Of a stretch of DNA of 64,000 nucleotides, positions 23,935-51,190 are shown piece after piece. The stretch is from Flectonema sp. DT1601 (lineage: Eukaryota). Both the position numbers and the translations under genes were made by a program. The stretch's first letter is position 1, and every line of letters starts with the position of its first letter. The notes beneath the pieces were generated by a model. It did not search any database, was not told the origin of the DNA, and saw nothing but the letters and a program-made list of their open reading frames with translations. The stretch spans positions 558,001-622,000 of the forward strand of contig OZ025800.1 of assembly GCA_964019425.1 (NCBI GenBank), written 5' to 3'.

Positions 23935-24592
23935 TGAGTATTAATTGGGGGGATGCTTAAGTTGACATAATTCAACTCGAAACAGTTTAATTATTATCGA
24001 GTAGGGATTCCGGCGCCGAGCGCGAAAAGCGCGAGGGGTCGGCATCACCACGAGAAGATAATTATGAGTTTAGAGTTAGACATTATGTCAACTTACCGCC
24101 CAATTTTATATTTAATGCCATAAATTAGAATTAGGACTGTGCACATTTCATCACGAGAACCGCTGCTGATTTCTTCCATTTCACTATTGCCCTCCCCATA
24201 ATTACACTCACGGGCTCAATAATTTTACGTTTGAAAGAAGCGTGAAATTAGGGCTCATAATGCCACTGAGGTCATAATCACACTCTTACTGATGCCCATT
24301 ATCCACATCCATTAAATTATCCTCCCGGAAAACTTAAAATCACCCCCAACATAATTGCCATTATGTCAAAATCACCCGGATTATTACAGGTCAATAACTA
24401 CATCGCCACAGCCATTTTAAACCAAAAACAGAAAATCATAATTTTACTGCTGTATTAGATTTGGTCTTAACTTCACGCTTTTGTGATAATTTCGATTTGC
24501 CAGCCATCGGCCTTGTGTACGGAATGTAATTATCGGAAACTTTCTACTCCGCGAGTGATGAAATGTGCACAGAAATAATTCGTTTATGGCAT
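23935..24592. mobile_element. 658-bp non-coding element built from two internal inverted-repeat modules, flanked by TA
   Basis: Near-identical reverse-complement copy at 27969-28626. Internal IRs taagttgacataat/attatgtcaactta and taatgccataaa..tgtgcacatttcatcac / gtgatgaaatgtgcaca..tttatggcatta. Confidence 0.85.
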
Positions 24593-27472: not shown

Positions 27473-27968
27473 TTATTTGGTAGTGTAATTTAGATAATTA
27501 AATTTCCTAACTTCAGCCGTGTCTGATTAAATACCCAGAAGTAATTGTAAATATCAAATAGCCTGTCGGGTTTGAAAGGACATCTGATTGTTGATATCAA
27601 CGTCAACGGAGGCGAATAATAAAATACCACTCGCTAGTTTCAAGCAGCTTCTTTATTTTTGATAGTCGAAAACAAGTTTTGTCCGAAATCTGTTTCACTC
27701 TTTCCTCTCCATGTTGCTTTATGAGGGATTCTTATAAAATAACAAACTTTTGATTTGAAGTATTGTCTTTTTTCCTTTTAGAAATATGTTTGATTTGGTG
27801 AACTATTTTATAGGAAAACTCAAATTCAAACTTGTCATTTCAAAGATTCTGATGTTATCCAGAACATCAGAACAATTTATTTATTGTTTTTATTATCTTA
27901 TTTCCTAAAATATGCAGGCCTTATACCGAAGTAGCTGCCTTGCTTTTAATTTCAGTTTTATTTGTTTA

Positions 27969-28626
27969 ATGCCATAAACGAATTATTTCTGTGCACATTT
28001 CATCACTCGCGGAGTAGAAATAACCCGATAATTACATTCCGTACACAAGGCCGATGGCTGGCAAATCGAAATTATCACAAAAGCGTGAAGTTAAGACCAA
28101 ATCTAATACAGCAGTAAAATTATGATTTTCTGTTTTTGGTTTAAAATGGCTGTGGCGATGTAGTTATTGACCTGTAATAATCCGGGTGATTTTGACATAA
28201 TGGCAATTATGTTGGGGGTGATTTTAAGTTTTCCGGGAGGATAATTTAATGGATGTGGATAATGGGCATCAGTAAGAGTGTGATTATGACCTCAGTGGCA
28301 TTATGAGCCCTAATTTCACGCTTCTTTCAAACGTAAAATTATTGAGCCCGTGAGTGTAATTATGGGGAGGGCAATAGTGAAATGGAAGAAATCAGCAGCG
28401 GTTCTCGTGATGAAATGTGCACAGTCCTAATTCTAATTTATGGCATTAAATATAAAATTGGGCGGTAAGTTGACATAATGTCTAACTCTAAACTCATAAT
28501 TATCTTCTCGTGGTGATGCCGACCCCTCGCGCTTTTCGCGCTCGGCGCCGGAATCCCTACTCGATAATAATTAAACTGTTTCGAGTTGAATTATGTCAAC
28601 TTAAGCATCCCCCCAATTAATACACA
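27969..28626. mobile_element. Second, inverted copy of the 658-bp element
   Basis: Reverse complement of 23935-24592. It interrupts tttgttt|(g/a)atgtctttac, which is intact at ~35065. Confidence 0.85.
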
Positions 28627-29170
28627 TAATGTCTTTACAATTTAGTATTTATTTATTTATTTATTTATTTATTTGTGATATCCTCGTTAGTTTTGCTGAC
28701 ACTTAACTTTTAATTCGAAGGTATTGTGTGTATTCTTTTTATATATTTGATTTAGTTAACTATTTTATAATAACTCAAATTATTAATTTATCATTTTCAG
28801 AACAATTTATTTAATGTTTTTATTACCTTATTTCCTAAAATACATTTTTTTATTATTTTAATGCGCAAACTCGTAAACTAAACTAATGCAGGCCTCATAC
28901 CAATTTTTTGTCCGAAACCTTTATTTGTTTGATGTCCTTGTGATTTATTATTTATTTATGTATTTGTGATATTCCCGTTGGTTTTGCTATTTTTAATTCG
29001 AAGAAATTATGTATCGCAGTGTTAGATTAAGGCCTATGTTTTCCTCAGTGTTATAATGCAATTTATTTTATTTATTTTTATTAATAATCTCATATGCTAA
29101 CTTTTAATTCAAAGGTATTGTCTGTATTCTTTTTATATATTTTGATTTAGTGAACTATTTTATGACAAAA

Positions 29171-31456: not shown

Positions 31457-33184
31457 ATGGTCGATGACTTACTTTGCAAACCCCGAGTTCCCTTGTTGCG
31501 TTTGCTTGTTGTCTTTTCAGTAATGAAGCTGTGTTTGTCGGATTGTTATGAAGCTTTGCCTTCGAACTTTCCGACTTGTTCAGATTATACCATTTCTGGT
31601 TATACTTGTGTATCAAGTGGTTGGTGTGTAGTTGATAGATGTGTTGCGAACTGTCCTATTTGTGCTGATTATTTTGTGAATAAGGTTCCAAATTATGCAA
31701 CCGGGAGATGTGTCATAGCTACAGCCATTCCAACAGCCATTCCAACAGCCATTCCAACAGCCATTCCAACAGCCATTCCGACAGCCATTCCAACGGCCAT
31801 TCCAACAGCAGTTCCCACTGCACCTCCTACAAGTGTGCCGACTGCAGTCCCGACGCTTGTTCCCACGTCCGTGCCGACTGCAAATCCGACAGCGGTTCCA
31901 ACACTTGTTCCCACAGCGATTCCGACAACCGTACCAACTATTGTCCCGACAGTCATTCCAACTGTAGTTCCGTCAACGAAGTCACCAAGCTATGGGGCTT
32001 CCTCTGTGAAGAAGGAAACCCCCATCGCCGAGAGTAGAAGTGTCACGGTTCCGTCGAACATCGCATTGGCCACTGGGGCGCTGACCACGTCGGGAGCTCA
32101 AGCAGTAGCTCTCGCTTACACGGTGAGAAGGATCACCTGCCTCGTCGAAGCTGAGAATGATGAATTAGACCTGTTTATGCACCCGCTTGGGTTTCCAGTT
32201 GCCGGTTCGTATTGGGCGGGAGCCGTAGTTGGCGGTTGTATTCTTTGTTTTGGTGTTGTGGTTTTTCATGTGGGACTTCATTTTATAGTTAAGGCTTGCA
32301 CGGGCGCGTCCAAGAGGAAGTCGGTAGCAAGGAGACTGAGATATCCGTCTGCTGTCATCCCTCCGTTGCTCATTTGTGCCGTGAACATTGCGACTTGCAG
32401 TGTGTTGTTGCTTAAGGAAAGCAAACTTCCTGTGATCGCAGTTTCTGGAATCTGCATCTCGATTGGAATTCCCGGAGTTGTGATGTGGCTGTTCAAACTT
32501 GACTCATCGAAGTGTCAGTTTATCAAGGGAACGGTTCCGAAAAGCAAACTATTTGTATACTTCTTGGGGGATGCTGCGTGGGAATCCACAGACGTCAACG
32601 ACATTTTGTACGTGGAATCAAACGGGTCGGTATTTGATGCTCACACAGAGCAGAAGTGGATCAGAGGACACTATTTCCTTCTTGAGTTTTGGATGACTAT
32701 TCCTGTTGTTTTGGTTTTATTGATTGAAAGTTGCGATGCGAGAGCATGGATATTATTTATTGTGAACGTCTTGCAGCTTGTAATGATTTTAAAATGTTGC
32801 ATCTACAGCTCAAACTTCCTGACTCACCTGTCAGTTGCCACGTGTTTGACAACATGCGTTCTGATCGTGTGCTCTCTCACTGGATTTGGAGGGGAGTTGG
32901 TGTTGACGCCTATGTTGTTGGCGCTCACCATTGTGAGGTCTATTTACGACTTTGTTTGTTACATTCTTGAGATGCTTTTTTCCGTCAGGGAATTGAAGTT
33001 GGAGAGGAATGCTGTCGATGTCTCAAACGTCGAACTCGGGAAATCAATGCAGCAGTCGTTGATAAGTATCGATTCGTTGGAAAATGGTATATATCCTGTG
33101 CCTTCCTTTGCGGCACCATTGAGTACAGCAACACCTTCGCTGAACTTTTTACATTGGGAAGACAGTCGGGATGTCACGTTTTAA
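31457..33184 (+). CDS. Surface/membrane protein copy 4 (7 TAIP units)
   Basis: Intact 575-aa paralog. Confidence 0.88.
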   Translation: MVDDLLCKPRVPLLRLLVVFSVMKLCLSDCYEALPSNFPTCSDYTISGYTCVSSGWCVVDRCVANCPICADYFVNKVPNYATGRCVIATAIPTAIPTAIPTAIPTAIPTAIPTAIPTAVPTAPPTSVPTAVPTLVPTSVPTANPTAVPTLVPTAIPTTVPTIVPTVIPTVVPSTKSPSYGASSVKKETPIAESRSVTVPSNIALATGALTTSGAQAVALAYTVRRITCLVEAENDELDLFMHPLGFPVAGSYWAGAVVGGCILCFGVVVFHVGLHFIVKACTGASKRKSVARRLRYPSAVIPPLLICAVNIATCSVLLLKESKLPVIAVSGICISIGIPGVVMWLFKLDSSKCQFIKGTVPKSKLFVYFLGDAAWESTDVNDILYVESNGSVFDAHTEQKWIRGHYFLLEFWMTIPVVLVLLIESCDARAWILFIVNVLQLVMILKCCIYSSNFLTHLSVATCLTTCVLIVCSLTGFGGELVLTPMLLALTIVRSIYDFVCYILEMLFSVRELKLERNAVDVSNVELGKSMQQSLISIDSLENGIYPVPSFAAPLSTATPSLNFLHWEDSRDVTF

Positions 33185-35700
33185 TTATTTGGTAGTGTAA
33201 TTTAGATAATTAAATTTCCTAACTTCAGCCGTGTCTGATTAAATACCCAGAAGTAATTGTAAATATCAAATAGCCTGTCGGGTTTGAAAGGACATCCGAT
33301 TGTTGATATCAACGTCAACGGAGGCGAATAATAAAATACCACTCGCTAGTTTCAAGCAGCTTCTTTATTTTTGATAGTCGAAAACAAGTTTTGTCCGAAA
33401 TCTGTTTCACTCTTTCCTCTCCATGTTGCTTTATGAGGGATTCTTATAAAATAACAAACTTTTGATTTGAAGTATTGTCTTTTTTCCTTTTAGAAATATG
33501 TTTGATTTGGTGAACTATTTTATAGGAAAACTCAAATTCAAACTTGTCATTTCGAGGATTCTGATGTTATCCAGAACATCAGAACAATTTATTTAATGTT
33601 TTTATTATCTCATTTCCTAAAATACATTTTTTATTATTTTAATGCGCAAACTATTCATTTCAAGCATTAATGTCATACAGAACATAAGAATGTCCTTACG
33701 ATTTACTGTTCAGGTGATTATTTCTTTTTAGTTGTGATAACTCCCACTAATTTCTTTGGGCAGTCATTTATCGTAGCTTTCTTGTTGGGAGAGTATAACA
33801 TTAATGTCTGAAACTTCGTATTCCATATAAAATGGAACTTCGGAACAATTTTTTTTTTTTTAATTTTCGCTCTAAATTCTCTTATTATTATTCTATCGTT
33901 ATGGTCTCAAGGATCTTTTTCTTAACTACGTTGAGACCAAACATCTCATCAAGTTAACGATGAGGTTTCCAACACCATACGAGGAATTATTATTAGATGA
34001 ATTCCTTCGGATTGAATGGCAGCTTTTTACTACTTTTCAAGTTGATAAGCTCGACGGTCATCTCCAAAAGGACTTTTATCATTATCAATATCAACTTCCT
34101 TTCCCCTCCCTAAATTTTGTTATTTTGCTAGCGAACCAGTCAAGGATGAAGCATTGAGGTACTAGTGTCTCTCGAACATTAGATTTCCTCGGCTACGCTA
34201 AAAAGTGATCTTCTCAGGGATCAGGTTCGACATAAAGTCGTAGTATTGGGGACTCACAGGTGGTTAACCGTTCCACCCTGTTGTGTCTATCTAACCAGTA
34301 CTCGATGGTATGTCGGGCTCGCTAAATGATACTAACTATGCCGAAACTTTTGCATCCGATTGAATTTTCCCATCCTCTCCCCTTCTTTTGACTGATTGCC
34401 ATTAATACTAACTCTGGTCACTACCACGCGGGACTCGCTTAGGGTTTACCAATGGCTCTGGCCTTGTGCGACAATACTGCACCCGGGTGCCGAAAGAAAC
34501 GTCTTCGTACGTCTGGCGGTGCCATGAGACTCGGACACATCCATAGAATACCGTCTGAGCATGAGTGGAACCTTTTTTATTTTTTTATTATTTATTCCCC
34601 ATAAACATAACTCAGCCCCACTCATTTTGTTGGTATCCCGCGTTCACTGATATTTATATAAGGGGACTGTGTTAAATGGTAAAAGAAATAACCATGTTGA
34701 CGTGATCCCTTGGCTGAGAAGGGCAAACGAGATGAGTAGGACAGGCCTGACACCGCAGTGTCCCCCTTACTTTCTTCGCTGAAGAGGGCTGGGTAAGGGG
34801 AATGGTCCGAAGAAAGATTTTTCAATTTTAGCCCGAAACCAACCATTATTTGTTTGTTGTCCTACGAACTTTTGCATTCGATTGAATTTTCCCGCCCTCT
34901 CCCCTTCTTTTGACTGATAACCATTAATACTAACTATACCGAAACTGCAGAAATGAATACTTTTCTTTACTAATCTCTACTTTTCTTATTCTCACTTTTC
35001 TGTTCTAAAATTAATGATACCAACTATACCGAAGTAGCTGCCTTGCTTTTAATTTTAGTTTTATTTGTTTGATGTCTTTACAATTTAGTATTTATTTATT
35101 TATTTGTGACATCCTCGTTGGTTTTGCTGACACTTAACTTTTAATTCGAAGGTATTGTGTGTATTCTTTTTATATATTTGATTAGTTAACTATTTTATAA
35201 CAACTCAAATTATTAATTTATCATTTTCAGAACAATTTATTTAATGTTTTTATTATCTTATTTCCTAAAATGCATTTTTTTTTTTTTTTAAATGCGCAAA
35301 CTCATAAACAAAACTAAGACAGAATCTCATATGCTAACTTTTAATTCAAAGGTATTGTGTGTATTCTTTTTATATATTTTGATTTAGTGAACTATTTTAT
35401 GACAAAAACTCAAATTCAAACTATTCATTTCAAGCATTAATGTCATACAGAACATAAGAATGTCCTTACGATTTACTGTTCAGGTGATTATTTCTTTTTA
35501 GTTGTGATAACTCCCACTAACTTCTTTGGGCAGTCATTTATCGTAGCTTTCTGTTGGTAGGAGGACACATGGTATAAGATAAAGGTAAATTTCTTTTCTT
35601 TCTTTTCTTTTTCTTCTTTTTTTTCTTTTTATTGTCTTTTATTTTACTCTATCTAGCTTCTTGGGGGGAACATTTACACTCGCAGTGAAAATCAGATAGT

Positions 35701-35998
35701 CATCCAAGACGCTATCCAACACCCCAACTCAGATCGCAGATGTATTTACAACATTACCAAGTACCGTGGATAACACCACCCAACGTAACAATTATACCTA
35801 ACAGAGATTTCAGAAAGTCACAGGACTCGGGACTCAACCTCAAATTTGCCATCGCTTCGTTGGTATCCGATGCGACCATATAGGAGACGTGCTGAGTTCT
35901 CGCGGATGAGATCCAGGGCTGAGATCAGTGCGCGCTGTTCGGCATTGTAAATCATGAGTGACGGATGATAGCGCTGTTGCTTCTTGTAGACCGAGATA
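35701..35998. pseudogene. Rearranged fragment of a second, divergent LINE family: connection region on +, RNase H piece on -
   Basis: The + strand gives QLRSQMYLQHYQVPWITPP (cf. ORF2 ELRSQKVLPHQYPPWSKHPP). The - strand gives YHPSLMIYNAEQRALISALDLIREN (cf. FQPSLTIYNAEQLALLSALELLEEN). Confidence 0.8.
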
Positions 35999-36379
35999 AT
36001 AAACTCATATTCTAACTAGTATAGAATGAAGTCCCTTAGAACGGCGGAGAGCTTTAACGCCTCCTTATTTTTTTCCATTTATTCACAGATTTGTATGAAA
36101 ATGTTCAAGGATATTTTGGTGGGCAAAAAAAGTGCCAATTTTTTTTTTTTTTTTTTTTCATGAACAGCGAAAATTTTTTTTTTTTTTGTTACTGAATGGA
36201 GAAAAAAAATTATCACTATCAGTGAACAGCGAAAAAAAAAAAAATTCTTTTACTGAATAGCGAAAATGGAATTATTGGACCCCCCAATAGCGAAAATCTC
36301 TATATTTTATTTTAGTGCACTTTTTTATAATAAACTCTTATTCTAACTAGTATAAGATTAAGGCTCCTGAAACTACATA

Positions 36380-36394
36380 TTCTGTACTTTATTG
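36380..36394 (+). other. Spliced-leader 3' remnant TTCTGTACTTTATTG at the 5' end of the retrotransposon
   Basis: 15/15 match to the conserved 3' end of kinetoplastid/diplonemid SL exons as recalled; ends 20 nt before the ORF1 ATG; followed by AT, not the GT of an SL gene intron. Confidence 0.8.
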
Positions 36395-36414
36395 ATTTCC
36401 AATAATTAACAACT

Positions 36415-38136
36415 ATGACATTGGATCCAGGCCTATTTGGCCTGATGCTGGAGAAGATGGTGGGCATGCTCGGTGAGATGCAGAAGGGTTTGAATGTAAA
36501 GGGGGTTACTAAACGCAACGGGGGAGAGAAGCCATCGGTGGATTTATCGCCGATGAATGAGGAATGGACGAGGGTACGTGGTAAGCGGCCCAAGGTAGTG
36601 AAGCGCAAGCCTGAGCCGGCTCAAGCGCTGAATTCGTTTAGTGGACTGAAGGAGGTCCGATGTGATGGGAAGGCAGCAACTAATTTACCGAATGTGCAAG
36701 AGAAGCGGTGGGACTGCCAACTCCGTGATGATGACTGGTCTGTTCCAATAATTTCGATGTCAGGCGTGTTTAACACGTCGATTACGTGTGGTGTGTCACT
36801 GGGCACGGCCTCTGATGTAGATGCGATGATTAAACTCCGACCGGGAACAAACCTCTCGGTAATTTGCAAGAAAAACCCTGGGGGCGGTAAGAAGATACAG
36901 TTCCCGGCGGTGGTAAACGACGGTGTACTGACACATCGGACCGGTTGGATTGTATCAACCGGGAAACCAGCTACCCTCTTCCGTGGAGACGCTCTGACTG
37001 CCGGTGACAATCGAGTGGTATTGTTCCACCACCACGCGCTCCACTCCAACGACAAGGTACCTTCACCTAATGAGTTGTGCAAGAAGGCTTCTGACTACTA
37101 CACAGCAGTCACGAACATGCCCATCGAGCCGCACCTCTTGTGGCCTGCCAACAAGAAGGAATCAGACCCTCATGTTAAGTCTGTGAACATGAGGGTGCCA
37201 GCAGACGCTGTTGACGCCTTGAGAAGGGCAAGTGGGAGTGGTGGGTACTTCTTATCAGTACCGAATTTCGCAGACACAGCACCGTGCAGGTCGTCAATCC
37301 AGCTCACGGTGGATTTTAAGTTAGCCTCATCGCTAGCCGGTGAACTCCGGTTACCTCTGAGGTTCTACCGCCACTCACGCAAGCTGGGGATTGTGTGTCT
37401 GAAGACCGACGAAGATTACGTGCGATCGAAGCTGGGTGAGAATGCACTGCCGCCTCCACCTGAAGGCCTCAAGTTCTGTTTGAGGAGCCGAGCAATTGAT
37501 GCGATGAGTTCGCTGGAAGTAGTGCAGGTCTGTGCTCACCAAGGGTGGGAGATTAACGTCGTTGCTAGGTACAGGAGCAGAAAGGAGCTTCCTAAGATGA
37601 TTGTAGTGGCCAAGGAGAAACCCAAGAGTAACTTCATCATTCTTCGTGATGACATGATCACAATCAAAGAGGTGGGTCTCGGCAAGCAGAATCCCGATAA
37701 GATGGACCTGGACGAGTTTCCTCACCTCTGTCAACCTAACGCTGCGCCATCTGTTGGAATTGATTTATCACCACCGCCTGTTTCTCAGCAAAATCAGCAA
37801 AATCAGCAATATCTGCAGACGCTACAATCGAACAAACAGCAGCTGCCCCTACCGCCTTCGCAGTACAACTGTCAACAATCCGACATTTCTAAATTGGTAT
37901 CGCAGGTTACTGAACTAACGGCTGCTGTGAAGAGTCTACGGCAGGACCTTGCTGAAGAGAGGGATGCGAATAGATGTCTTCGAAAGGAGATTGAGTCCCT
38001 GAATAACGATAAAGGATCGGGTTCTCAGAGGCTGACGGTCTCAAGTAGGCAACGAGCTAACTCTGTTGCTGCTACTAAGTCTGAAATGGCTGACCGTCTT
38101 GACCGGAATGAGAAACGGGACTACTCGAGGAATTAA
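36415..38136 (+). CDS. Retrotransposon ORF1 (gag-like position; Gln-rich linker and C-terminal coiled coil)
   Basis: 573-aa ORF directly upstream of and in frame with ORF2; heptad pattern ISKLVSQVTELTAAVKSLRQDL. Confidence 0.8.
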   Translation: MTLDPGLFGLMLEKMVGMLGEMQKGLNVKGVTKRNGGEKPSVDLSPMNEEWTRVRGKRPKVVKRKPEPAQALNSFSGLKEVRCDGKAATNLPNVQEKRWDCQLRDDDWSVPIISMSGVFNTSITCGVSLGTASDVDAMIKLRPGTNLSVICKKNPGGGKKIQFPAVVNDGVLTHRTGWIVSTGKPATLFRGDALTAGDNRVVLFHHHALHSNDKVPSPNELCKKASDYYTAVTNMPIEPHLLWPANKKESDPHVKSVNMRVPADAVDALRRASGSGGYFLSVPNFADTAPCRSSIQLTVDFKLASSLAGELRLPLRFYRHSRKLGIVCLKTDEDYVRSKLGENALPPPPEGLKFCLRSRAIDAMSSLEVVQVCAHQGWEINVVARYRSRKELPKMIVVAKEKPKSNFIILRDDMITIKEVGLGKQNPDKMDLDEFPHLCQPNAAPSVGIDLSPPPVSQQNQQNQQYLQTLQSNKQQLPLPPSQYNCQQSDISKLVSQVTELTAAVKSLRQDLAEERDANRCLRKEIESLNNDKGSGSQRLTVSSRQRANSVAATKSEMADRLDRNEKRDYSRN

Positions 38137-38160
38137 CAACCACTTCCAATTGACTCTTTA

Positions 38161-41100
38161 TTGGGAAAGACTCCGTCCTTGGAGTACTATTATTCTGTGA
38201 GTGGGCTTCTGGAACTCTATCGTAGTGGTTTTCCGAGACACCCTGGTCCGATGTCTGATATATCGCCGCTGAGAATACTTAGTTGGAATGCGCTGTCGAT
38301 GGTAAAGCACCATGAATCTCTGGTACGGCTCGTTCAATCGGCTAATCCTGACATCCTCCATATTCAAGAAACTTGGCTCACTGATCTGGTTCTTGATGAA
38401 CAGATTCAACTTCAGGGATACACCTGCTTCCGTAGGGACAGAATCAGATTAAATTTTGATGGCAAGGCAAAACGCGGTGGTGGACTGGCGACTTTCTGCA
38501 GGGACTCCCTTGTGGTCAGGAGATTATCGGATCCAACTGAGCGTAATTCACCGTTTGAGGTGTTAGTTGTCGAGGTAATGACAGACATCGGTCCGATTAC
38601 GTCTTCTAATGTGTATATTCCGCAGAATTTCTTGGTGCCGACCTCTGTTGTCTTCGGTGAAGTAGTATGTGGAGATTTCAATGCTCACCATCGGTCGTGG
38701 TCGAGGGTGGTTCCAACAAGTAGTTCGTCGCGAGGTCTGTCAGTTCTTGATTGGATTAACGGAAATGGACTGCAGATTTGCGATGTTCCGCTGGATACAA
38801 GACCTTGTTCAGAGACTTCACCTGATTTGTTTCTTGTCGACAGCAATATTGAGGTGTTGAATGTACACCAATACAGTGCGTCTGATAGTGGGTCCGACCA
38901 CACGCCAATAGTGGTTGACATCTCGGTATATCCGGGCTGCTCACAAATTACCACTCCCGCTCACCGCCGCTGGTTCTACAACAAGTTCGAGGATGAGCAC
39001 TGGGTCTCATTTCGCGTGCTAACTGAAGCGCGAGCTCATCGTTTGGAGGGGATGTCTAATGTGAACAAGCTTGGATGTGAATTTATTAGTCTAATTGAGG
39101 AGGTGGCTATTGAAACGCTTCCAAACAAATGGTTCAAATCTGATACGAAGCGGAGGAAGAAATTACCTAAGCTGAGACCTGATCTTATTGCGAAAATTGG
39201 TTCTTCAAAAGGAGCGGCCTGGGCCTTCGACAAACTGCGGGAACTCAGGGGCGGTCGGTCTAATTCGAAGGAAGTTCCGGTAGCTGCTGATGATTTACTC
39301 GACCATTTCTTTGGTGATTCAAAATCCTCACCGTTATTAGTTCCTGATTCGAAGCCTGCTGATTATGATGACTCAAGCTGTGGTTCTTTTTCGATTCATG
39401 AGTTATACACGGTACTGAAGTCATTGACTCCCTCCCACGGGTCTGGTTTAGATTCTGTTTCTAATAATATGCTGCTTAACTTGGGTCCCCGTATGCTCCT
39501 ACTATTGCTTAGACTCGCCTCGCTATCTTTCAGGAGGGGTATCTTTCCCTCTTGCATGAAAAAGGCCAAGGTGATAATAATTCCGAAGGGAGGGGATCGT
39601 GACCCGCTTCTTCCGTCTTCTTACAGACCAATCTCTTTGACGTCAATTGTTTCGAAGTGCTTGGAGTCGCTTGTAGGTAATCGATGTGAACATTTGTTGG
39701 AGGGGAAGTTGGACCCTAGGCAGTCTGGTTTTACGCCGGGCAGAAATGTAGAAGAGAACATCTCGCTATTGGTGGATGCGGCTTCCGGTGTGCAGAAACT
39801 CTATGATGGTTATGGAGCGATCATCCTCTTTGATATCTCTGGGGCATTCGATAACGTGGATCATCAAATACTCGTTGATAGATTGGTAGCTGTCCTGCCG
39901 GTTCCGTATGTTAAATGGCTTGCGAATTATCTTTCGGATAGAAATGTGAGTCTGTCTCTGGGATTAGATAATGGATCCAGATCGTGTACAAAGGGGGTCC
40001 CTCAAGGATCTGTGCTTGGTCCTCTCTTATTTCGGATCTTTGTCGACTCCCTGCCAGGTCTAATAAGTGATGCTGATCTCAGTGTTCTGTTTGCTGATGA
40101 TCTTGCCGTGTTTCTGCAACATGAGAAGATAGATGGGATCGAAGCGAAGGGCCTGTCCGTCATCTCTCAGATAGAAGGTTGGATGGTTTCCTCTAAGATG
40201 GAGGTAAACATGAAGAAAACAGAGTACGTTGCCTTTGGTAAGCGCATCTCTGGCTCCGATGTCGAATGGAGTAGGGCACCTCGCTTTTACTTCCCATCGT
40301 CTGTTGAAGAGTTACACATGCCTACAGGCTCTGCCGGTGCTCTCACTGAGAAGCTTTCTCCATCAATAGGGGCAGTTCTGGATCTCGCTGATGCTTTGCT
40401 GCCACTGGAGATTGATGGTTACCCGGTGACGAGACGTTCTGACTTTGTCCGACTGGCCTGTGCTCGTAAGAGCAAAGAGTTCAGGCTGAAAGCAGCGATC
40501 CCGCTGAAACGTGTCAGGAGCGCGAAATACCTAGGAGTTATCATTGATGACTCGCTATGCTTCGACGAACAGGTGGATAAGATTGTGAAAACAATTCGAG
40601 CTGGTTGCGGTTTACTCAAAATGTTCTCTGCCTATGAGGTCAAAACTGATACCCTTCGTCAGCTTGTAGATGGTGCAGTGTTATCTCGAGCGTTCTTTGG
40701 ACTAAAGGCCTTTTCTCCCTTTTTGTCTGATGCTCAGATCAAGCGGATCGAAGCGTGCTTGCGTCATCTAAGGATAAGACTCACTGGTTGCTCGTTCTCG
40801 ACGAAGGATGTGGTGCTCACAGTTGAGTCGCGAATTCCACCGCTGCAACAAACGATATCTAGGCTCCTTGCCCTAGTTCATGAAGATTTGCTAAGGCGAC
40901 AACCTGAATGTCCTTCATGGAGGCTGTTTAACGGTGGTGAGAAGAAGAGACCATGGCAGACTAGAGTTGAAGCCTGTTCCTCGGAATTTTCTCTGTCAGA
41001 GCTTAGGTCCCAGAAAGTTCTGCCACATCAGTACCCTCCGTGGTCGAAGCATCCTCCTTTGGTTGTAAACACGTCCTGCGGTTATGACAAGACTGACACA

Positions 41101-42300
41101 CCTGAGGAGAAGTATACTGTGGCGATGACGACCCTCAATGAACTGCCCCCGTGTGTTGCTGAAGTCTACACTGATGCCTCGGTCTTCCATGACGAGGAGC
41201 GGGGATTATTATGTGGGGGGGCTGCTGTTCTGCTAGTTGCTGGCAAGGTCATTGAGAAGCTCTCCAAGTTCCAACCGTCCCTCACGATTTACAATGCAGA
41301 ACAACTAGCACTATTGTCAGCCCTTGAACTACTAGAGGAGAATCTTCATGTTGTTTCGCATGGCGTGATTCATATTTTCAGTGATTGTCAGTCGGCGCTT
41401 GCCTCCCTGCATAGGGGGCCATCCAGGCAGTCATCATCAACAAATCGTGAGATTTTTGAACGCTCAGTGCTTCTTGATAGGCCGTTGATTTTCCAACATG
41501 TCCCATCTCATTGTGGCATTGCAGGGAATGAACTGGCTGATACACTGGCAAAGAAGGCAGCCTTGCAATCAGTTGACCCTGAACTAACTCCGTATGATTT
41601 CAGGATGGCTCAATGTTGTATTAAGAAACAAGCAAATTGGAAGGCTATGGGTACTGTGGACTCTTCGCATTCATACAGCAAAGCGACTCTAGGATCTGGC
41701 CCTCAGCGTTTCCTTCCCTGTCTCACTAGGGGGCAGGAGGTAGAATTGTCTCGTCTGCGAACCTCTCACCACAGGCTTGTAAAGCTACCGAGGGTCACTG
41801 CGGGCTTTAAATGTTGTCTGTTCTGTGGCTTTCAGGATACCTCAACTGAGCATCTGCTGCTTGAATGCGTTGAGACCAGGGAATTAGTAAAGCAAACCAT
41901 GAGATTTCCGACACCTGATGATGAGCTATCTCTGGATATGTTCTTTCGAACCGAATGGCAGCCTTTCACGTTGTTATTGATCAGCAAGCTTGATAATCAT
42001 CTTAAAGAGTTATCTGACAATCCGTTGTTGTTGAAGTTTCCGCTTCAGGGTATTTTTGTGAGGAAGAAACTAATCACACACATCGAAAGGAAGACAAGTT
42101 TCTCGCTACTGGGTTCTGATGTGAAGAAATATGTTATGGAACTTATTGATAACGCTTATAAAGCTACCGATTTAAATGTTGTTATTGACGACCTTTCTAT
42201 GGTTAATGTGCTGGTCAATCCTAGCTGGTCGGAATCCAAGCTTTCTAAGTTCCTCTCTCGCCTAAGTCGCCTCCTGCGAAGTAATCCCCGAGGTAGATAA
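38161..42300 (+). CDS. Retrotransposon ORF2: AP-endonuclease, reverse transcriptase, RNase H and Cys/His motif (first ATG at 38251)
   Basis: APE: LRILSWN, HIQETWL, GDFNAHH, SDHTPI. RT: YRPISLTS, QSGF, FDISGAFD, GVPQGSVLGP, LFADD, KYLG. RNase H: YTDAS, AEQLA, FSDCQSA, HVPSHCGIAGNELAD. C-terminal CLFC..EHLLLEC. Confidence 0.96.
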   Translation: MGKTPSLEYYYSVSGLLELYRSGFPRHPGPMSDISPLRILSWNALSMVKHHESLVRLVQSANPDILHIQETWLTDLVLDEQIQLQGYTCFRRDRIRLNFDGKAKRGGGLATFCRDSLVVRRLSDPTERNSPFEVLVVEVMTDIGPITSSNVYIPQNFLVPTSVVFGEVVCGDFNAHHRSWSRVVPTSSSSRGLSVLDWINGNGLQICDVPLDTRPCSETSPDLFLVDSNIEVLNVHQYSASDSGSDHTPIVVDISVYPGCSQITTPAHRRWFYNKFEDEHWVSFRVLTEARAHRLEGMSNVNKLGCEFISLIEEVAIETLPNKWFKSDTKRRKKLPKLRPDLIAKIGSSKGAAWAFDKLRELRGGRSNSKEVPVAADDLLDHFFGDSKSSPLLVPDSKPADYDDSSCGSFSIHELYTVLKSLTPSHGSGLDSVSNNMLLNLGPRMLLLLLRLASLSFRRGIFPSCMKKAKVIIIPKGGDRDPLLPSSYRPISLTSIVSKCLESLVGNRCEHLLEGKLDPRQSGFTPGRNVEENISLLVDAASGVQKLYDGYGAIILFDISGAFDNVDHQILVDRLVAVLPVPYVKWLANYLSDRNVSLSLGLDNGSRSCTKGVPQGSVLGPLLFRIFVDSLPGLISDADLSVLFADDLAVFLQHEKIDGIEAKGLSVISQIEGWMVSSKMEVNMKKTEYVAFGKRISGSDVEWSRAPRFYFPSSVEELHMPTGSAGALTEKLSPSIGAVLDLADALLPLEIDGYPVTRRSDFVRLACARKSKEFRLKAAIPLKRVRSAKYLGVIIDDSLCFDEQVDKIVKTIRAGCGLLKMFSAYEVKTDTLRQLVDGAVLSRAFFGLKAFSPFLSDAQIKRIEACLRHLRIRLTGCSFSTKDVVLTVESRIPPLQQTISRLLALVHEDLLRRQPECPSWRLFNGGEKKRPWQTRVEACSSEFSLSELRSQKVLPHQYPPWSKHPPLVVNTSCGYDKTDTPEEKYTVAMTTLNELPPCVAEVYTDASVFHDEERGLLCGGAAVLLVAGKVIEKLSKFQPSLTIYNAEQLALLSALELLEENLHVVSHGVIHIFSDCQSALASLHRGPSRQSSSTNREIFERSVLLDRPLIFQHVPSHCGIAGNELADTLAKKAALQSVDPELTPYDFRMAQCCIKKQANWKAMGTVDSSHSYSKATLGSGPQRFLPCLTRGQEVELSRLRTSHHRLVKLPRVTAGFKCCLFCGFQDTSTEHLLLECVETRELVKQTMRFPTPDDELSLDMFFRTEWQPFTLLLISKLDNHLKELSDNPLLLKFPLQGIFVRKKLITHIERKTSFSLLGSDVKKYVMELIDNAYKATDLNVVIDDLSMVNVLVNPSWSESKLSKFLSRLSRLLRSNPRGR

Positions 42301-42943
42301 TGAACGTCTCTTTCCTCTAGTGTAATTTCTTATTTTATTTATTAGTATCATTTCTATTACTTATCATTACTTTATTTCTTATTTTCTGATCTAATGTGGC
42401 GTGTTCTCCCTCTCTTTGGCGAAAATTGGCGTTATCAGCCGTCTCTAACACTGTCTGCTCGCGTGGACGGTGGGTTTAGGTAGTCATTTGTTCCAGGTTA
42501 TTCTACGTCTCTTATCGTCTGTGAGAGTCTCACGGTTGCTGGTAGCGATATAACTGTTACTCTGTGAGCTTTTCCTGGCTTTTGGCTTCCTAGGCTTCGT
42601 AAATAAATAAATAAATAAATAAATAAATTCTATTCCCCTTTGATGTTAGGAAACTGCAGAAATGAATACTTTTCTTTTACTAATCTCTACTTTTCTTATT
42701 CTCACTTTTCTGTTCTAAAATTAATGATACTAACTTTGTTTGATGTCTTTACAATTTATTATTTATTTATTTATTTGTGACATCCTCGTTGGTTTTGCTG
42801 ACACTTAACTTTTAATTCGAAGGTATTGTGTGTATTCTTTTTATATATTTGATTTAGTTAACTATTTTATAATAACTCAAATTATTAATATATCATTTCA
42901 GAACAATTTATTTAATGTTTTTATTATCTTATTTCCTAAAATA

Positions 42944-42979
<36 letters not shown>

Positions 42980-44351
42980 GCGCAAACTCATAAACTAAAC
43001 TACCAGGTCCTGACTGTCATCTTACCTGATCCTTTTGGTTTCATTTCTTGCTGAGTGATATGGCTATGTGCTGCCCAATTTTTTTGTGGTACATTTCTAA
43101 AGCTTTTCGGTAAGCCCACAGTACAATTATAATGCTTTGGACAACTGGGGATGAACGATCCTCGGTACTGTTCCGGGGTTTTCTATTTTCTTTCGTGGAG
43201 TGTGGGCATATGGCACATATGGTTGAATTATTTATCCAAGTTCCCCCCACTCCCAGATCATTTCTCTTTTATTTTCTTTAGTTGTTTACAACCTGTTAAA
43301 GAATACTCATATCGATACTAAAATATGTGGTTTTAATGTCCTCAACAAGATTAACATTGCATAAGAGCGATGGGGTTTCCAGAGTTCTTTTGGATTGAAT
43401 GGCAGCGTTTTACTACTTTTTTGGTTGATAAGCTCGACTCTTTCAGACATCCTAAACTAGTATTCGATGACTGGGTCGCAATCACTATCAAACTAACGTC
43501 AGTGAATGTTATATTTATCTTGGAATGATAACAACTTCGACATAGAATTTACTGATGAAGGCCTAAAAAGGAAAATTAAGGACTTGAATCACTGCCTAAC
43601 TTGCTAAACTCAGCAGAACAATATTATTATATGTTTTCACTTTATCTCATTTTTTCTCAAATGCATTTTCAGTAAAATCTTACGATTGATTTTATATTTT
43701 ATGGAAAACTTGTTTCCAAAGATGTCGCTTCCATAATCACGGTAAGCAAAGATGAAAGTCGCCACCGTTCCTTTTCATGTTAATATATAGTAAGTGAAAA
43801 AGCTTTACTCCGTCGTGTTATATTATTCCCTATAGACAATAATGTTTCTGGGGTCTCTTGTCTTGTCTTTACTAATATTACTAATCGGTTCAGTCTTAAT
43901 ATGTGTGCTGTGAATCAATTGTCATTTTATTATGCCTTTTGCGAAACATTCATTGTTTGTTAACATCAATTTAATCTTAATGACACAGTTGGAATGTCCT
44001 CCGAATTGGATGGGCGTTTTTCACTAAAATAAATTTTGATTATCGAATGTTGAGTGTTTTGTTCAGCTAACTATCTGTTTCATCAATTCATTTATTTTAT
44101 TTGTGGTGGTCTCGCTGATATAGCTGTTGACTGTTTCATTTTCTGATATTGACCTAGGAGACCTATTGCGGTTAGCGGTACGGCCTGATGCAAGAGAAGA
44201 GATCTCCCCTGTCTTTTCCATGCACATCCACCGTGGGAAAATCATAAGCAGATAAATCCTTTCTAACTCACTTTCTGCTGCAGTATTTGGGTCTAGCAAC
44301 CCACCCAACTGATACTCGGTGATTCCTACTAACTAACTCTCTTGCAATTGT

Positions 44352-45845
44352 GGAGTAATTCAGCACCCCGTTGCAGCAATGGACTCGCTCGAAAGCGACA
44401 TAGCAGTTTACGTAAATAAAGCTTACAGAAACACCACTGACGATATTAAACTTCGCTTCAAAAACGTAATTCTTAAGCATCTCCACACCAAACTGAGCCG
44501 AGACCTTTCATTCCTTGACTCCCCGCTGTCAAGCAAAGCTCTCAAAGAACTTTCTTCACTACAAAATTCGATGGTTCTCTTAAAAGTAGACAAAGGACAA
44601 CATGATATTGGTTTCATCTGTAAATCCTTCTACCTGAGTCTCCTCAGCAAACAATTAGGAGGTCCAGCCTATCAACAATTGAAAGCAACAGAGGAAGTCA
44701 CTCTAGCCTTCTTAGCTGAGAATAATAAAATCTTAGGAAACAAGCATGCAGATAGACTACCACATCTCTACGGCATGATTAAATTGCACAAGTCAGCTAT
44801 TGGGATGAGATGGATTTCGGGAGCCTCTTCACTCACAGGAACGGAGAAGCAACGTCAATTAGACAAGGAGCATAAAACGGCACCCTTAACACCCATTAAT
44901 TAGACAAACGATTCCCAATACAATCACATCAATCTTAAGGGGAAGGTCTAATTGGAGGTGAGTGTGGATGGGCATCGCTGAATTTTGTTGCAGACCATCT
45001 TTATCTTGACCGAATTAATTTTAGCTATTTGCAAGAACTACAACAAACATTCTACGAAGAACATCAAAAAGTAGAACTTGGCAGCAACGAGCAAACCATC
45101 CCCGGATGGCTGGTTCTCTTTAACCTTTCTGGGGGTAGCAAGTAAACATAAACTCAACAGGGAAATCCACTAGTATTTAGATCCCAGTTCTATGGACTAC
45201 CCAACAATAGCCGCCGCATTCATTTTAAACAAAGCTGGTGCTAGAATGTCACACTACATAGTGGCCCTTGTCTCCTTCGATTCCATTATTGTTAGAGACA
45301 TTCTCAAAGGAGCGACAGACCGACGATTATCATTCGACCATTTTGACAGACATTTTAAACGCCCAGAATATTGTTTTCACATGATTTTAAGAAAAACTCT
45401 GCAGGGTAATAATAATGATGACGACTGTACCATGGCACCCACGAATGAAGGAATTCTACTCCTCACCAACACTAAGGAAAAGCGCAAGAAAGACGACTAC
45501 AGCTCCGATGAAGGAGAACTCGCACTCGTAATAAAACGAACAGATGTAGAAGAGATAGAACGCTGATCAAAAGCAAATATATGCTAGCCCGTCCTGGCGA
45601 GCTCCGATGGACATTAAGAAATCAGTTATTTTGAAATAGACCTAATTGATGGATCCGATTTATTTAACTGGAATGAAGTCCCTAGAACTTACTGATGAAG
45701 GCCTAAGAGGGACAAGTAGTATAAGATTAAGGCTCCCGAAACTACGTATTCCACAGTGTATTATGGAACAGCAGAACAATGTGTTTTTATAATTTTTCTT
45801 TTTTATATTTTATTTTAGTGCACTTTTTTATAATAAACTCATATT
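44352..45845 (+). mobile_element. Internally deleted/decayed Penelope-like (PLE) retroelement remnant with ~19-bp TSD
   Basis: ORF 44379-44903 has VLLKVDKG..IGFICKSFY and LPHLYGMIKLHKS..MRWISG, resembling the PLE RT N-terminus. Flanks are ctaactctcttgcaattgt (44333-44351) and ctaactctcttataattgt (45846-45864); empty site at ~25155. Confidence 0.75.
45669..45755 (+). ncRNA. Hammerhead-ribozyme-like motif in the PLE 3' region
   Basis: CTGATGA (45692-45698) and GAAAC-TAC-GTA (45738-45748) with an imperfect stem aggcctaa/ttaaggct; stem I is not canonical. Confidence 0.35.
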
Positions 45846-46447: not shown

Positions 46448-48415
46448 ATGGTCGATGACTTACTTTGCAAACCCCGAGTTCCCTTGTTGCGTTTGCTTGT
46501 TGTCTTTTCAGTAATGAAGCTGTGTTTGTCGGATTGTTATGAAGCTTTGCCTTCGAACTTTCCGACTTGTTTAGATTATACCATTTCTGGTTATACTTGT
46601 GTATCAAGTGGTTGGTGTGTAGTTGATAGATGTGTTGCGAACTGTCCTTTTTGTGCTGATTATTTTGTGAATAAGGTTCCAAATTATGCAACCGGGAGAT
46701 GTGTCATAGCTACAGCCATTCCAACAACCATTCCAACAGCCATTCCGACAGCCATTCCGACGGCCATTCCAACAGCCATTCCGACAGCCATTCCGACGGC
46801 CATTCCGACGGCCATTCCGACGGCCATTCCAACGGCCATTCCAACAGCCATTCCGACAGCCATTCCGACAGCCATTCCAACAGCCATTCCAACAGCCATT
46901 CCGACAGCCATTCCGACAGCCATTCCGACAGCCATTCCAACAGCCATTCCGACAGCCATTCCAACAGTTATTCCGACAGCCATTCCGACAGCCATTCCGA
47001 CAGCCATTCCAACAGTTATTCCGACAGCCATTCCAACAGCCATTCCGACAGCCATTCCAACAGCCATTCCAACGCCAGTTCCTACAAGTGTGCCGACTGC
47101 AGTCCCGACGCTTGTTCCCACGTCCGTGCCGACTGCAAATCCGACAGCGGTTCCAACACTTGTTCCCACAGCGATTCCGACAATCGTACCGACTGTTGTC
47201 CCGATAGTCATTCTAACTGTAGTTCCGTCGACGAAGTCACCAAGCTATGGGGCTTCCTCTGTGAAGAAGGAAACCCCTATCGCCGAGAGTAGAAGTGTCA
47301 CGGTTCCGTCGAACATCGCATTGGCCACTGGGGCGCTGACCACGTCGGGAGCTCAAGCAGTAGCTCTCGCTTACACGGTGAGAAGGATCACCTGCCTCGT
47401 CGAAGCTGAGAATGATGAATTAGACATATTTATGCACCCGCTTGGGTTTCCAGTTGCCGGTTCGTATTGGGCGGGAGCCGTAGTTGGCGGTTGTATTCTT
47501 TGTTTTGGTGTTGTGGTTTTTCATATGGGACTTCATTTTATAGTTAAGGCTTGCACGGGTGCGTCCAAGGGGAAGTCGGTAGCAAGGAGACTGAGATATC
47601 CGTCTGCTGTCATCCCTCCGTTGCTCATTTGTGCCGTGAACATTGCGACTTGCAGTGTGTTGTTGCTTAGGGAAAGCAAACTACCTGTGATCGCAGTTTC
47701 TGGAATCTGCATCTCGATTGGAATTCCCGGAGTTGTGATGTGGCTGTTCAAACTTGACTCATCGAAGTGTCAGTTTATCAAGGGAATAGTTCCGAAAAGC
47801 AAACTATTTGTATACTTCTTGGGGGATGCTGCGTGGGAATCCACAGACGTCAACGACATTTTGTACGTGGAATCAAACGGGTTGGTATTTGATGCTCACA
47901 CAGAGCAGAAGTGGATCAGAGGACACTATTTCCTTCTTGAGTTTTGGATGACTATTCCTGTTGTTTTGGTTTTATTGATTGAAAGTTGCAATGCGAGAGC
48001 ATGGATATTATTTATTGTGAACGTCTTGCAGCTTGTAATGATTTTAAAATGTTGCATCTACAGCTCAAACTTCCTGACTCACCTGTCAGTTGCCACGTGT
48101 TTGACAACATGCGTTCTGATCGTGTGCTCTCTCACTGGATTTGGAGGGGAGTTGGTGTTGACGCCTATGTTGTTGGCGCTCACCATTGTGAGGTCTATTT
48201 ACGACTTTGTTTGTAACATTTTAGATGTGTTTTATGCCGTCAGGGAATTGAAGTTCGAGAGGAATGCTGTCGATGACTCAAACGTCGAACTCGGGGAATC
48301 AATGCAGCAGTCGTTGATAAGTATCGATTCGTTGGATAAAAGTGTTCATCCTGTGCCTTCCGTTGGTACTGGGAAGACAGTCGCGAAGTCAGGTTTTAAT
48401 TATTTTGAAATTTAG
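46448..48415 (+). CDS. Surface/membrane protein copy 5 (about 30 12-bp stalk units, altered C-terminus)
   Basis: Intact 655-aa paralog; 12-bp minisatellite at ~46712-47071. Confidence 0.88.
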   Translation: MVDDLLCKPRVPLLRLLVVFSVMKLCLSDCYEALPSNFPTCLDYTISGYTCVSSGWCVVDRCVANCPFCADYFVNKVPNYATGRCVIATAIPTTIPTAIPTAIPTAIPTAIPTAIPTAIPTAIPTAIPTAIPTAIPTAIPTAIPTAIPTAIPTAIPTAIPTAIPTAIPTAIPTVIPTAIPTAIPTAIPTVIPTAIPTAIPTAIPTAIPTPVPTSVPTAVPTLVPTSVPTANPTAVPTLVPTAIPTIVPTVVPIVILTVVPSTKSPSYGASSVKKETPIAESRSVTVPSNIALATGALTTSGAQAVALAYTVRRITCLVEAENDELDIFMHPLGFPVAGSYWAGAVVGGCILCFGVVVFHMGLHFIVKACTGASKGKSVARRLRYPSAVIPPLLICAVNIATCSVLLLRESKLPVIAVSGICISIGIPGVVMWLFKLDSSKCQFIKGIVPKSKLFVYFLGDAAWESTDVNDILYVESNGLVFDAHTEQKWIRGHYFLLEFWMTIPVVLVLLIESCNARAWILFIVNVLQLVMILKCCIYSSNFLTHLSVATCLTTCVLIVCSLTGFGGELVLTPMLLALTIVRSIYDFVCNILDVFYAVRELKFERNAVDDSNVELGESMQQSLISIDSLDKSVHPVPSVGTGKTVAKSGFNYFEI

Positions 48416-50471: not shown

Positions 50472-50868
50472 TGGTGATGTCAAAGAAGAACTTATTGATA
50501 ATTCATATAAAGCTACCAATTTAAATATTATTGACGAGCTTTCTATAGTAGATGCGCTGATCTCCTGACTGGTCAGAATCTAAGCTTTCTAAATTTCTTC
50601 CCGGTTAAGTCGCCTCCTGCGACGTAACCCCCTGGGTGAATAAAGTACATGTCTTTTCTTTGGTGCAGTTGTCTTATTTTATTTTACTAATAATCTAAGT
50701 ATCATTAATCCTTATTTTCTGAACTAAAGTGGCGTGTTCTCTCTCTCTGACGGAAATTAGTGTTATCATCCGTCTCTAACACTGTCTGCTCGCGTGGACG
50801 GTGGGTTTAGGTAGTCATTTTGTTCCAGGTTATTTTATGTCTACGGTTGCTGGTAGCGATATAACTGA
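50472..50868 (+). pseudogene. Diverged 3' fragment of the LINE (ORF2 end plus 3' UTR)
   Basis: Collinear similarity to 42115-42555, e.g. taagtcgcctcctgcga and cgtctctaacactgtctgctcgcgtggacggtgggtttaggtagtcattt. Confidence 0.85.
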
Positions 50869-51190
50869 TTACCCTGTGAATAACTGGTTACCCTCGACGG
50901 TCATCTCCAAAAGGATTACCAGATAATCTGCTTCCCTTTCAAGGTATTCTTGTTTCCTTTTTATAGTCATTCAACCATCTCTAACACAGACAGTGAGTCA
51001 TTCATTACAACAGTTTGTCTACGTCTCTATTGGACTCAAGGTTGTTTGGTATGGAATAACAGATCCTTGGCAGGCAGGCAAGTTTTTTATTTTTTATTTT
51101 TTTTTAATAATAATCATACTTGTACCCCTTTAAAGGGGAATTAAAAACTAAAGCAGAAATAAAGGGCCTTTAATTAATTCCCCTTTATTT

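What the first reader, a model, noticed from the sequence alone, without database searches (positions are those of the whole stretch)
38125..38253. ORF1 and ORF2 are in frame, separated by one UAA in a CAR-YYA readthrough context
Seen: ...AGG AAT TAA CAA CCA CTT CCA ATT GAC TCT TTA TTG GGA... has no further stop, so ORF1 (36415) and ORF2 (to 42300) form one ~1960-codon frame interrupted by a single TAA at 38134-38136. Known: stop-CAR-YYA is the TMV-type leaky-termination signal, also described for SIRE-type LTR elements; CAA-CCA fits it exactly. Inference: programmed readthrough yields a minor ORF1-APE-RT-RNaseH fusion. That is a retrovirus-like gag-pol strategy, unusual for non-LTR elements, and would let one SL-capped mRNA make both proteins.
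Basis: partly seen in the sequence, partly recalled or inferred. Interest (0 to 1): 0.85.

Follow-up and report, generated by a model that had tools for sequence, protein, structure and literature searches.

The report
Leaky stop linking retrotransposon genes
In a jumping-gene (LINE) family from what is likely a diplonemid protist, one shared stop codon in a plant-virus-type 'leaky' context separates the two genes; the stretch after it still matches the protein leader of a sister family, so ribosomes likely read through the stop to make the copying enzyme, a route our paper searches did not find for this class of elements.

Summary
Observation confirmed: 36415-42300 is one 1962-codon frame with a single internal TAA (38134-36), followed by CAA CCA. 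The element is an intact APE-RT-RNase H LINE, likely diplonemid, with a spliced-leader remnant at its 5' end. The stop is not private: 9 of 9 sister proteins reaching this C-terminus end at it, and ORF1 homologues of three more families end nearby. New: the 38-codon linker is not a spacer. Its last 23 codons match the AUG-started, 2A/StopGo-like ORF2 leader of a sister family with 42-46% identity (GVHPNPGP; here degenerate GFPRHPGP), yet this family has no AUG before it. CAR-YYA follows 5 of 3259 stop triplets in the window. Against: in-frame single stops are common in LINEs (2 of 4 comparator families); an AUG sits exactly at the endonuclease start; a UUG lies where the sister AUG maps; one decayed copy has a frame break in the linker. 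No sister-copy DNA or RNA could be obtained. Readthrough about 50%, reinitiation about 37%, separate spliced mRNA about 10%. New variant of a known kind.

The parts
36380..36394 (+). Spliced-leader remnant (15 nt) at the inferred 5' end of the element, 20 nt before the ORF1 ATG
   Evidence: Identical to the last 15 nt of the Blastocrithidia nonstop SL fragment printed in PMC12153298; only copy in the window, 3e-4 expected on the + strand. The host's own SL was not seen.
36415..38136 (+). ORF1, 573 aa: predicted alpha/beta core (about 100-420) and C-terminal coiled coil (about 488-532); likely RNA-binding ORF1p
   Evidence: No Pfam match above cut-off; homologues at 24-31% incl. Flectonema neradi; AF2 mean pLDDT 61; only weak Foldseek hits (E>0.001), many of them to RRM proteins
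38134..38142 (+). TAA stop plus CAA CCA (CAR-YYA context)
   Evidence: stop position shared by 9 of 9 sister proteins; one copy inferred to read TAG CAA CCA
38137..38250 (+). 38-codon in-frame linker, no ATG; near-cognate starts ATT 38149, TTG 38161, TTG 38179, GTG 38197, CTG 38209
   Evidence: codon-model score +2.0 in frame vs -6.1 and -12.3 in the other frames
38182..38250 (+). 2A/StopGo-like peptide, degenerate core GFPRHPGP at 38227-38250
   Evidence: 9 of 23 identical, ungapped, to the sister-family ORF2 leader; 0 of 20000 shuffles reach the score, 3 of 20000 without the PGP
38251..42300 (+). ORF2, 1349 aa from ATG: APE (about 38278-38901), RT (about 39580-40512), RNase H (about 41161-41562), C-X2-C-X8-H-X4-C motif (41815-41868)
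   Evidence: Pfam PF03372, PF00078, PF00075; zinc motif read from the translation and kept in the sister family
42301..42627 (+). 3' UTR and (TAAA)7 tail (42600-42627); only weak 5-nt target-site-duplication candidates
   Evidence: 3' fragments of related elements at about 50488-50879 and 23455-23660

Best explanation
This is an intact, multi-copy two-ORF LINE whose ORF2 enzymes are likely made when a few percent of ribosomes read through the ORF1 UAA in its CAA-CCA context and translate the 38-codon linker. Shown: one frame, one stop shared by sister copies, a linker whose peptide is conserved with the 2A-like ORF2 leader of a sister family, and no AUG ahead of that peptide here. Inferred: the element RNA is one SL-capped bicistronic mRNA (the SL remnant, both ORFs and the tail were copied together). 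Most ribosomes would stop and give abundant ORF1p. A minority would continue into linker-APE-RT-RNase H, which fixes a low ORF2p:ORF1p ratio in cis. Because the 2A core has lost two key positions, the main product would probably be the 1961-residue fusion, with free ORF2p only if residual StopGo remains. The family would have replaced the sister family's AUG start by readthrough.
For: Stop shared by 9 of 9 sister ORF1 C-termini. ORF1 homologues of three other families end at about the same place. No fused form among 9 hits in a search with no length limit or 7 hits of 741-2361 aa. Linker peptide identity (9 of 23) is as high as that of the linker-plus-APE alignment (106 of 292), with no stop or indel, which is hard to keep without translation. 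The sister family starts this leader with an AUG (internal Met in P0037); this family has none. CAR-YYA follows only 5 of 3259 stop triplets. One copy is inferred to have changed TAA to TAG while keeping CAA CCA. No host-like splice acceptor in the linker. CAR-YYA needs no 3' structure (PMC3159437), so z=0.13 is no objection.
Against: An ATG lies at the usual ORF2 start, six residues before the first APE strand, and readthrough does not need it. TTG 38161 maps ungapped onto the sister AUG, so non-AUG reinitiation explains the conserved linker equally well. The CCA may simply be an inherited proline codon (sister leader begins MPPPP), which lowers the surprise of the motif. In-frame single stops occur in 2 of 4 comparator families, each with an ATG at the APE start and no CAR-YYA. 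Decayed copy P0017 is inferred to carry a 2-nt deletion between the stop and TTG 38161. Sister copies are 93-100% identical, so they do not test selection. Tca2 shows that an in-frame stop need not be locally leaky (PMC2194720). My paper searches found no LINE precedent, so the prior is low.
Confidence: 0.5

Rival explanations
1. Termination-reinitiation. Ribosomes stop at UAA and restart at a near-cognate codon early in the linker (UUG 38161, 24 nt on, then translating the old 2A leader) or at AUG 38251. Frame and CAA CCA are coincidence or inheritance.
For: Known LINE mechanism: SART1 UAAUG, and L1 across a 63-nt spacer (PMC5972666; PMC3894237). That L1 tolerates non-AUG restarts is recalled, not read. 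TTG 38161 maps onto the sister AUG. ATG at the APE start, as in comparators L022 and L028. 2A core degenerate. P0017 frame break lies upstream of TTG 38161. Weak structure just 5' of the stop (z -2.26, 5 of 200 shuffles; one of three junction regions folded).
Against: Needs same frame, 8 open codons and CAR-YYA together by chance: about 0.33 x 0.66 x 0.0017 on iid figures, more if CCA is inherited. The AUG-38251 version does not explain the conserved linker peptide. No structure 3' of the ATG (z 0.50), unlike SART1.
Confidence: 0.37
2. ORF2 is made from its own mRNA, by SL trans-splicing inside the linker or late ORF1, starting at AUG 38251.
For: Essentially all Diplonema papillatum mRNAs carry an SL from processing of polycistronic RNA (PMC10161547); ATG at the APE start; one YAG at 38223-38225.
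Against: That YAG has 55% pyrimidines in the 20 nt before it, the ORF2 background median (n=96), against 75-90% for the best YAG before 6 of 6 host ATGs (best-of-window, so biased upward). It does not explain linker conservation or CAR-YYA. The Flectonema ORF1 is labelled '.p2', which suggests a second long ORF on the same transcript contig (inference from the label).
Confidence: 0.1
3. The family is a defective descendant of a single-ORF element and the TAA is a nonsense mutation in its founder, or a sequencing artefact.
For: Fused ORF1p-2A-ORF2p forms are reported in one arachnid (bioRxiv 10.64898/2026.06.17.732966). No read covers the stop.
Against: Stop shared across copies down to 96% identity, and ORF1 homologues of three other families end at the equivalent place. 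The sister family has a separate ORF2 start. No fused form found.
Confidence: 0.03

Closest known systems
Ingi/L1Tc clade of trypanosomatids
   Same: Euglenozoan host; APE-RT-RNase H; 2A-like peptide directly before APE, including an HPGP variant in 20% of L1Tc copies (PMC3708506). D. papillatum has 76 proteins in an orthogroup annotated 'Tbingi protein' (PMC10161547 supplement).
   Different: Ingi-clade elements have one ORF and no ORF1 (PMC3894237) and a Pr77 promoter/HDV-like ribozyme. This element has a 573-aa ORF1, an SL remnant at the 5' end, a (TAAA)n tail and a degenerate 2A core with no AUG before it.
Type I (tobamovirus/benyvirus/pomovirus) readthrough, UAG-CAR-YYA
   Same: Six 3' bases fit the consensus; no 3' structure; structural/RNA-binding ORF before polymerase.
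   Different: UAA rather than UAG (one viral precedent); CCA rather than the usual UUA/UYA; only the -2 adenine; conservation under selection not shown.
MuLV gag-pol, SIRE1 pol-env, Tca2 gag-pol in-frame stops
   Same: Retroelement ORFs separated by one in-frame stop (PMC2194720).
   Different: All are LTR elements or retroviruses; MuLV needs a pseudoknot; Tca2 local context gave no readthrough in yeast. That SIRE1 uses CAR-YYA is recalled, not read here.
Two-ORF LINEs with a 2A in ORF2 (CR1-26_BF, CR1-53_BF, CR1-1_LG); SART1 and L1 reinitiation
   Same: ORF1 plus a 2A-like leader on ORF2 (PMC3894237); the sister family fits this layout.
   Different: There the 2A sits in the N-terminal region of ORF2 itself; here it lies upstream of the first AUG, in frame behind the ORF1 stop.

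Membership tests
APE-type LINE (non-LTR retrotransposon) | APE and RT in one ORF | tested here: met
   Pfam PF03372 E 4.5e-13, PF00078 E 1.7e-32, plus RNase H PF00075
APE-type LINE (non-LTR retrotransposon) | 3' simple-repeat tail; dispersed and 5'-truncated copies | tested here: met
   (TAAA)7 at 42600-42627; clusters of 8 ORF1 and 25 ORF2 proteins on many contigs; related 3' fragments in the window
APE-type LINE (non-LTR retrotransposon) | Target-site duplication | tested here: inconclusive
   Only 5-nt candidates at the junctions
Ingi clade | Single ORF, no ORF1 | tested here: not met
   573-aa ORF1 upstream
Ingi clade | 2A-like peptide before APE | tested here: inconclusive
   Present in position; core degenerate here, near-canonical in the sister family
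Ingi clade | Pr77 hallmark / HDV-like ribozyme at the 5' end | tested here: inconclusive
   Rfam scan of 34000-44500 gave only two chance-level matches; no Pr77 reference was at hand
Ingi clade | RT groups with Ingi/L1Tc | not testable with these tools
   No named Ingi sequence could be fetched; in a tree of 19 unnamed RTs the window and sister family group at 100/98 and the deep forks are open
Type I CAR-YYA programmed readthrough | Stop followed by CAR-YYA, ORFs in frame | tested here: met
   TAA CAA CCA
Type I CAR-YYA programmed readthrough | Context conserved beyond neutral expectation in divergent relatives | tested here: inconclusive
   No DNA of relatives; one copy inferred TAG CAA CCA but with a 2-nt deletion just downstream
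Type I CAR-YYA programmed readthrough | Measured readthrough product | not testable with these tools
   Needs a reporter, ribosome profiling or peptides
2A/StopGo peptide | Core (D/G/C/N)(V/I)ExNPGP, with H tolerated at p14 and p16 (PMC12846837) | tested here: not met
   Window GFPRHPGP departs at p13 and p14; sister GVHPNPGP fits with the p14=H variant
2A/StopGo peptide | Peptide-bond skipping activity | not testable with these tools
   Needs a dual-reporter assay

The most novel reading that the evidence does not exclude
A LINE that chains two recoding events 38 codons apart: programmed UAA readthrough sets how many ribosomes enter ORF2, and a still-working variant StopGo (GFPRHPG/P) then frees the APE-RT-RNase H from ORF1p, giving retrovirus-like stoichiometry without a protease. 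It would have arisen by a switch from AUG reinitiation, which the sister family appears to keep.
Probability: 0.15. Interest if true: 0.85.

Novelty: new variant of a known kind. Interest (0 to 1): 0.62.

Why it matters
How LINE ORF2 is translated from a bicistronic RNA is an open question (PMC3894237). The solutions I found in print are reinitiation and, for single-ORF elements, 2A. A readthrough LINE would add a third route, and a pair of sister families, one with an AUG-started 2A leader and one with stop-CAA-CCA and no AUG, would be a natural experiment on how such switches evolve. It would also be a candidate for programmed readthrough in a trans-splicing euglenozoan, testable with a reporter insert of about 150 nt. 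Whatever the mechanism, a two-ORF, 2A-bearing, SL-ended LINE lineage in diplonemids did not turn up in my searches.

Tried and rejected
No genome held. Sequencing runs: no RNA holder listed; contigs of run X1 cover 37657-38096 and 38173-38585, not the stop. No second full copy in the window. Homology search with linker+APE among 762-2428 aa proteins: nothing at E<=0.001 (the family's own cluster representative lacks the APE). Locus scans: viral contigs none, prokaryote genomes none; the metagenome scan gave 28 loci, all distant LINEs (24-44%), none of this lineage. ESM Atlas on ORF1: best score 0.80, a lead only. Foldseek on the ORF1 model: nothing at E<=0.001. RNA structure in the linker (z 0.13) and after the ATG (z 0.50): none. 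Rfam: nothing meaningful. Stop-codon reassignment in the host rejected. Insertion into an SL RNA gene rejected: the bases upstream of the remnant belong to another repeat and the 3' flank is a dispersed repeat. The idea that the sister family uses an overlapping stop-start (ORF1 ends in Gln, ORF2 begins Met-Met-Pro in one copy) fits the protein ends but has no DNA behind it and is not counted. Earlier findings: five look-ups, nothing. PMC12621601 passages gave nothing on the SL.
Full report
Observation. The frame starting at ATG 36415 runs 1962 codons to TAA 42298-42300 with one internal stop, TAA 38134-38136, followed by CAA CCA and 38 open codons to ATG 38251. ORF2 holds APE, RT and RNase H. 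TAA is an ordinary stop in this host: 7 of the 11 host ORFs listed end in it (four of these are copies of one gene), and a full-length glycerate kinase reads without stops. CAR-YYA follows 5 of 3259 + strand stop triplets in the window and 1 of 282 in the element; iid probability is 0.0017, and 38 open codons has probability 0.14. The documented consensus is UAG-CAR-YYA, with UAA-CAA-UUA in one divergent virus, and it works without 3' structure (PMC3159437, passages).

What the element is. It runs from about 36380 to a (TAAA)7 tail at 42600-42627. Its first 15 nt equal the 3' end of a kinetoplastid spliced leader (PMC12153298, passage; 3e-4 expected), 20 nt before the ORF1 ATG. I infer that this copy was reverse-transcribed from a trans-spliced RNA carrying both ORFs; the host's own SL was not seen. 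The best distant ORF1 homologue is from the diplonemid Flectonema neradi (31%), so the host is likely a diplonemid. ORF1 has no Pfam family; its model shows an alpha/beta core and a C-terminal coiled coil, with only weak hits, many to RRM proteins. Only 5-nt target-site-duplication candidates exist.

Is the stop private? No. The ORF1 cluster has 8 members; 7 reach the C-terminus and all end at DYSRN, the eighth is a frameshifted N-terminal piece. Two more fragments in other clusters end there too: 9 of 9. The window's ORF1 protein is recorded on 4 contigs, and two full-length ORF2 proteins on 2 contigs each (15 of 25 ORF2 members were listed). ORF1 homologues of three other families (587, 680, 739 aa) end at about the same place. 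No fused protein appeared among 9 hits without length limit or 7 hits of 741-2361 aa. These copies are 93-100% identical and probably from one assembly, so they show a fixed family trait, not selection on the context.

The linker is an old ORF2 leader. A sister family (ORF2 P0037, 42-46% identical; paired with ORF1 cluster P0029 only by a shared contig length) begins ORF2 with a 30-residue leader ending GVHPNPGP directly before the APE (4 of 4 members with an intact N-terminus). The last 23 linker residues here align to it without gaps, 9 identical; 0 of 20000 shuffles reach the score, 3 of 20000 when the PGP is removed. The linker-plus-APE alignment is 36% identical, so the linker has diverged no faster than the enzyme. 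A codon model trained on the two ORFs scores the linker +2.0 in frame and -6.1 and -12.3 off frame (ORF2 windows +7.3 +/- 3.4, inflated by training). This is where L1Tc and Ingi carry their 2A (PMC3708506, passages). The sister core fits the expanded StopGo motif with the functional p14=H variant; the window's GFPRHPGP fails at p13 and p14 (PMC12846837, passages; PMC12338488, passages), so it is probably weak or dead. The sister leader starts at an AUG (internal Met in P0037); the window linker has none. Ungapped, that AUG maps to TTG 38161; MAFFT instead puts it on the first codon after the stop.

Results against readthrough. (i) An ATG lies six residues before the first APE strand, the usual ORF2 start. 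(ii) Of 28 distant LINE loci I listed ORFs for 12; five, from four families, showed both the ORF1 end and the ORF2 start. Two families (L022, L028) are in frame with a single stop and an ATG 0 or 7 codons later, neither with CAR-YYA. (iii) A decayed, internally deleted copy (P0017, read in another frame) is best explained by TAA to TAG with CAA CCA kept, but also by a 2-nt deletion near 38150 and a 3-nt deletion near 38188. The 2-nt deletion would break readthrough but not a start at 38161; it may be decay after insertion (that copy differs at 8 of 207 ORF2 residues). (iv) CCA may be an inherited proline codon. (v) Tca2's in-frame stop was not locally leaky (PMC2194720, abstract and passages). 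(vi) No structure in the linker (z 0.13); weak structure 5' of the stop (z -2.26; one of three regions folded).

Separate mRNA. The only YAG in 38100-38250 has a background-level pyrimidine tract (0.55 vs ORF2 median 0.55, n=96; best sites before 6 host ATGs 0.75-0.90, a biased comparison). RNA data could not test this.

Mechanism and odds. The conserved peptide says the linker is, or was until recently, translated; with no AUG, the routes are readthrough or non-AUG reinitiation. Frame, eight open codons and CAR-YYA together cost about 4e-4 under reinitiation on iid figures, against a low prior for readthrough in a LINE and the new AUG at the APE start. I put readthrough at 0.5, reinitiation at 0.37, a separate SL mRNA at 0.10 and founder mutation at 0.03. 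Under readthrough the product is likely a fusion; tandem readthrough plus working StopGo is about 0.15.

Comparison with print. Ingi-clade elements have 2A and no ORF1; a few CR1 elements have both; ORF2 initiation is called open, with SART1 stop-start as the worked case (PMC3894237, parts 1-2 of 3 read; PMC5972666, passages). Fused ORF1p-2A-ORF2p forms are noted in one arachnid (bioRxiv 10.64898/2026.06.17.732966, passages; its supplements were not seen). Diplonemid transposons are not yet rigorously catalogued (PMC10161547, passages and one supplement search; PMC12278014, passages). Searches found no report of readthrough in a non-LTR element, nor did passages of PMC5009743; the library lacks most subscription papers and Repbase was not searched. 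SIRE1's CAR-YYA context and L1's AUG-independence are recalled, not read. The element works like an Ingi relative in its enzymes and leader but fails the single-ORF criterion; its clade was not tested against named references. Verdict: real feature, new variant of a known kind, interest 0.62.

Noticed in passing
window 45668-45756 (partial copies near 18045, 18553, 36020, 36345-36382, 43543, 50372): Dispersed repeat with hammerhead-like core words (CTGATGA ... GAAAC), about 770 nt after a 174-aa ORF (44379-44903) that looks like a fragment of a Penelope-type RT (recalled motif; no Pfam match). Rfam found nothing and folding z was -1.17, so a ribozyme is unconfirmed.
   Followed up: partly
window 36380-36394: Spliced-leader 3' end fixed in genomic DNA at the LINE 5' junction; suggests the element is mobilised as a trans-spliced RNA and raises the question of how such copies are re-expressed.
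   Followed up: partly
proteins P0037/P0043/P0044/P0050 (sister family): ORF2 leader ends GVHPNPGP, a near-canonical StopGo core, in an element that also has an ORF1: an untested 2A from a likely diplonemid.
   Followed up: partly
window 15914-17569, 19910-21637, 25757-27472, 31457-33184, 46448-48415: Five copies of a membrane-protein gene with an N-terminal Cys-rich segment and a variable number of PTAI repeats (551-655 aa), interleaved with decayed mobile-element pieces.
   Followed up: no
window 23933-24614 and 27947-28628: 682-nt inverted repeat, 99% complementary, flanking the gene copy at 25757-27472.
   Followed up: no
window 35909-35967 (- strand): 59-nt piece 80% similar to the element's RNase H region, inverted, about 400 nt upstream of the element.
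   Followed up: no
L028 1446-1470; L022 2274-2279: Unrelated LINEs with ORF1 and ORF2 in frame across a single stop (TGA then 7 codons to ATG; TAA directly followed by ATG).
   Followed up: partly
L008, L009: Metagenome LINE fragments with a canonical 2A core directly upstream of the APE.
   Followed up: no
window 6204-7358: Intronless full-length glycerate kinase of the PF02595 family, which I recall as mainly bacterial; origin not examined.
   Followed up: no
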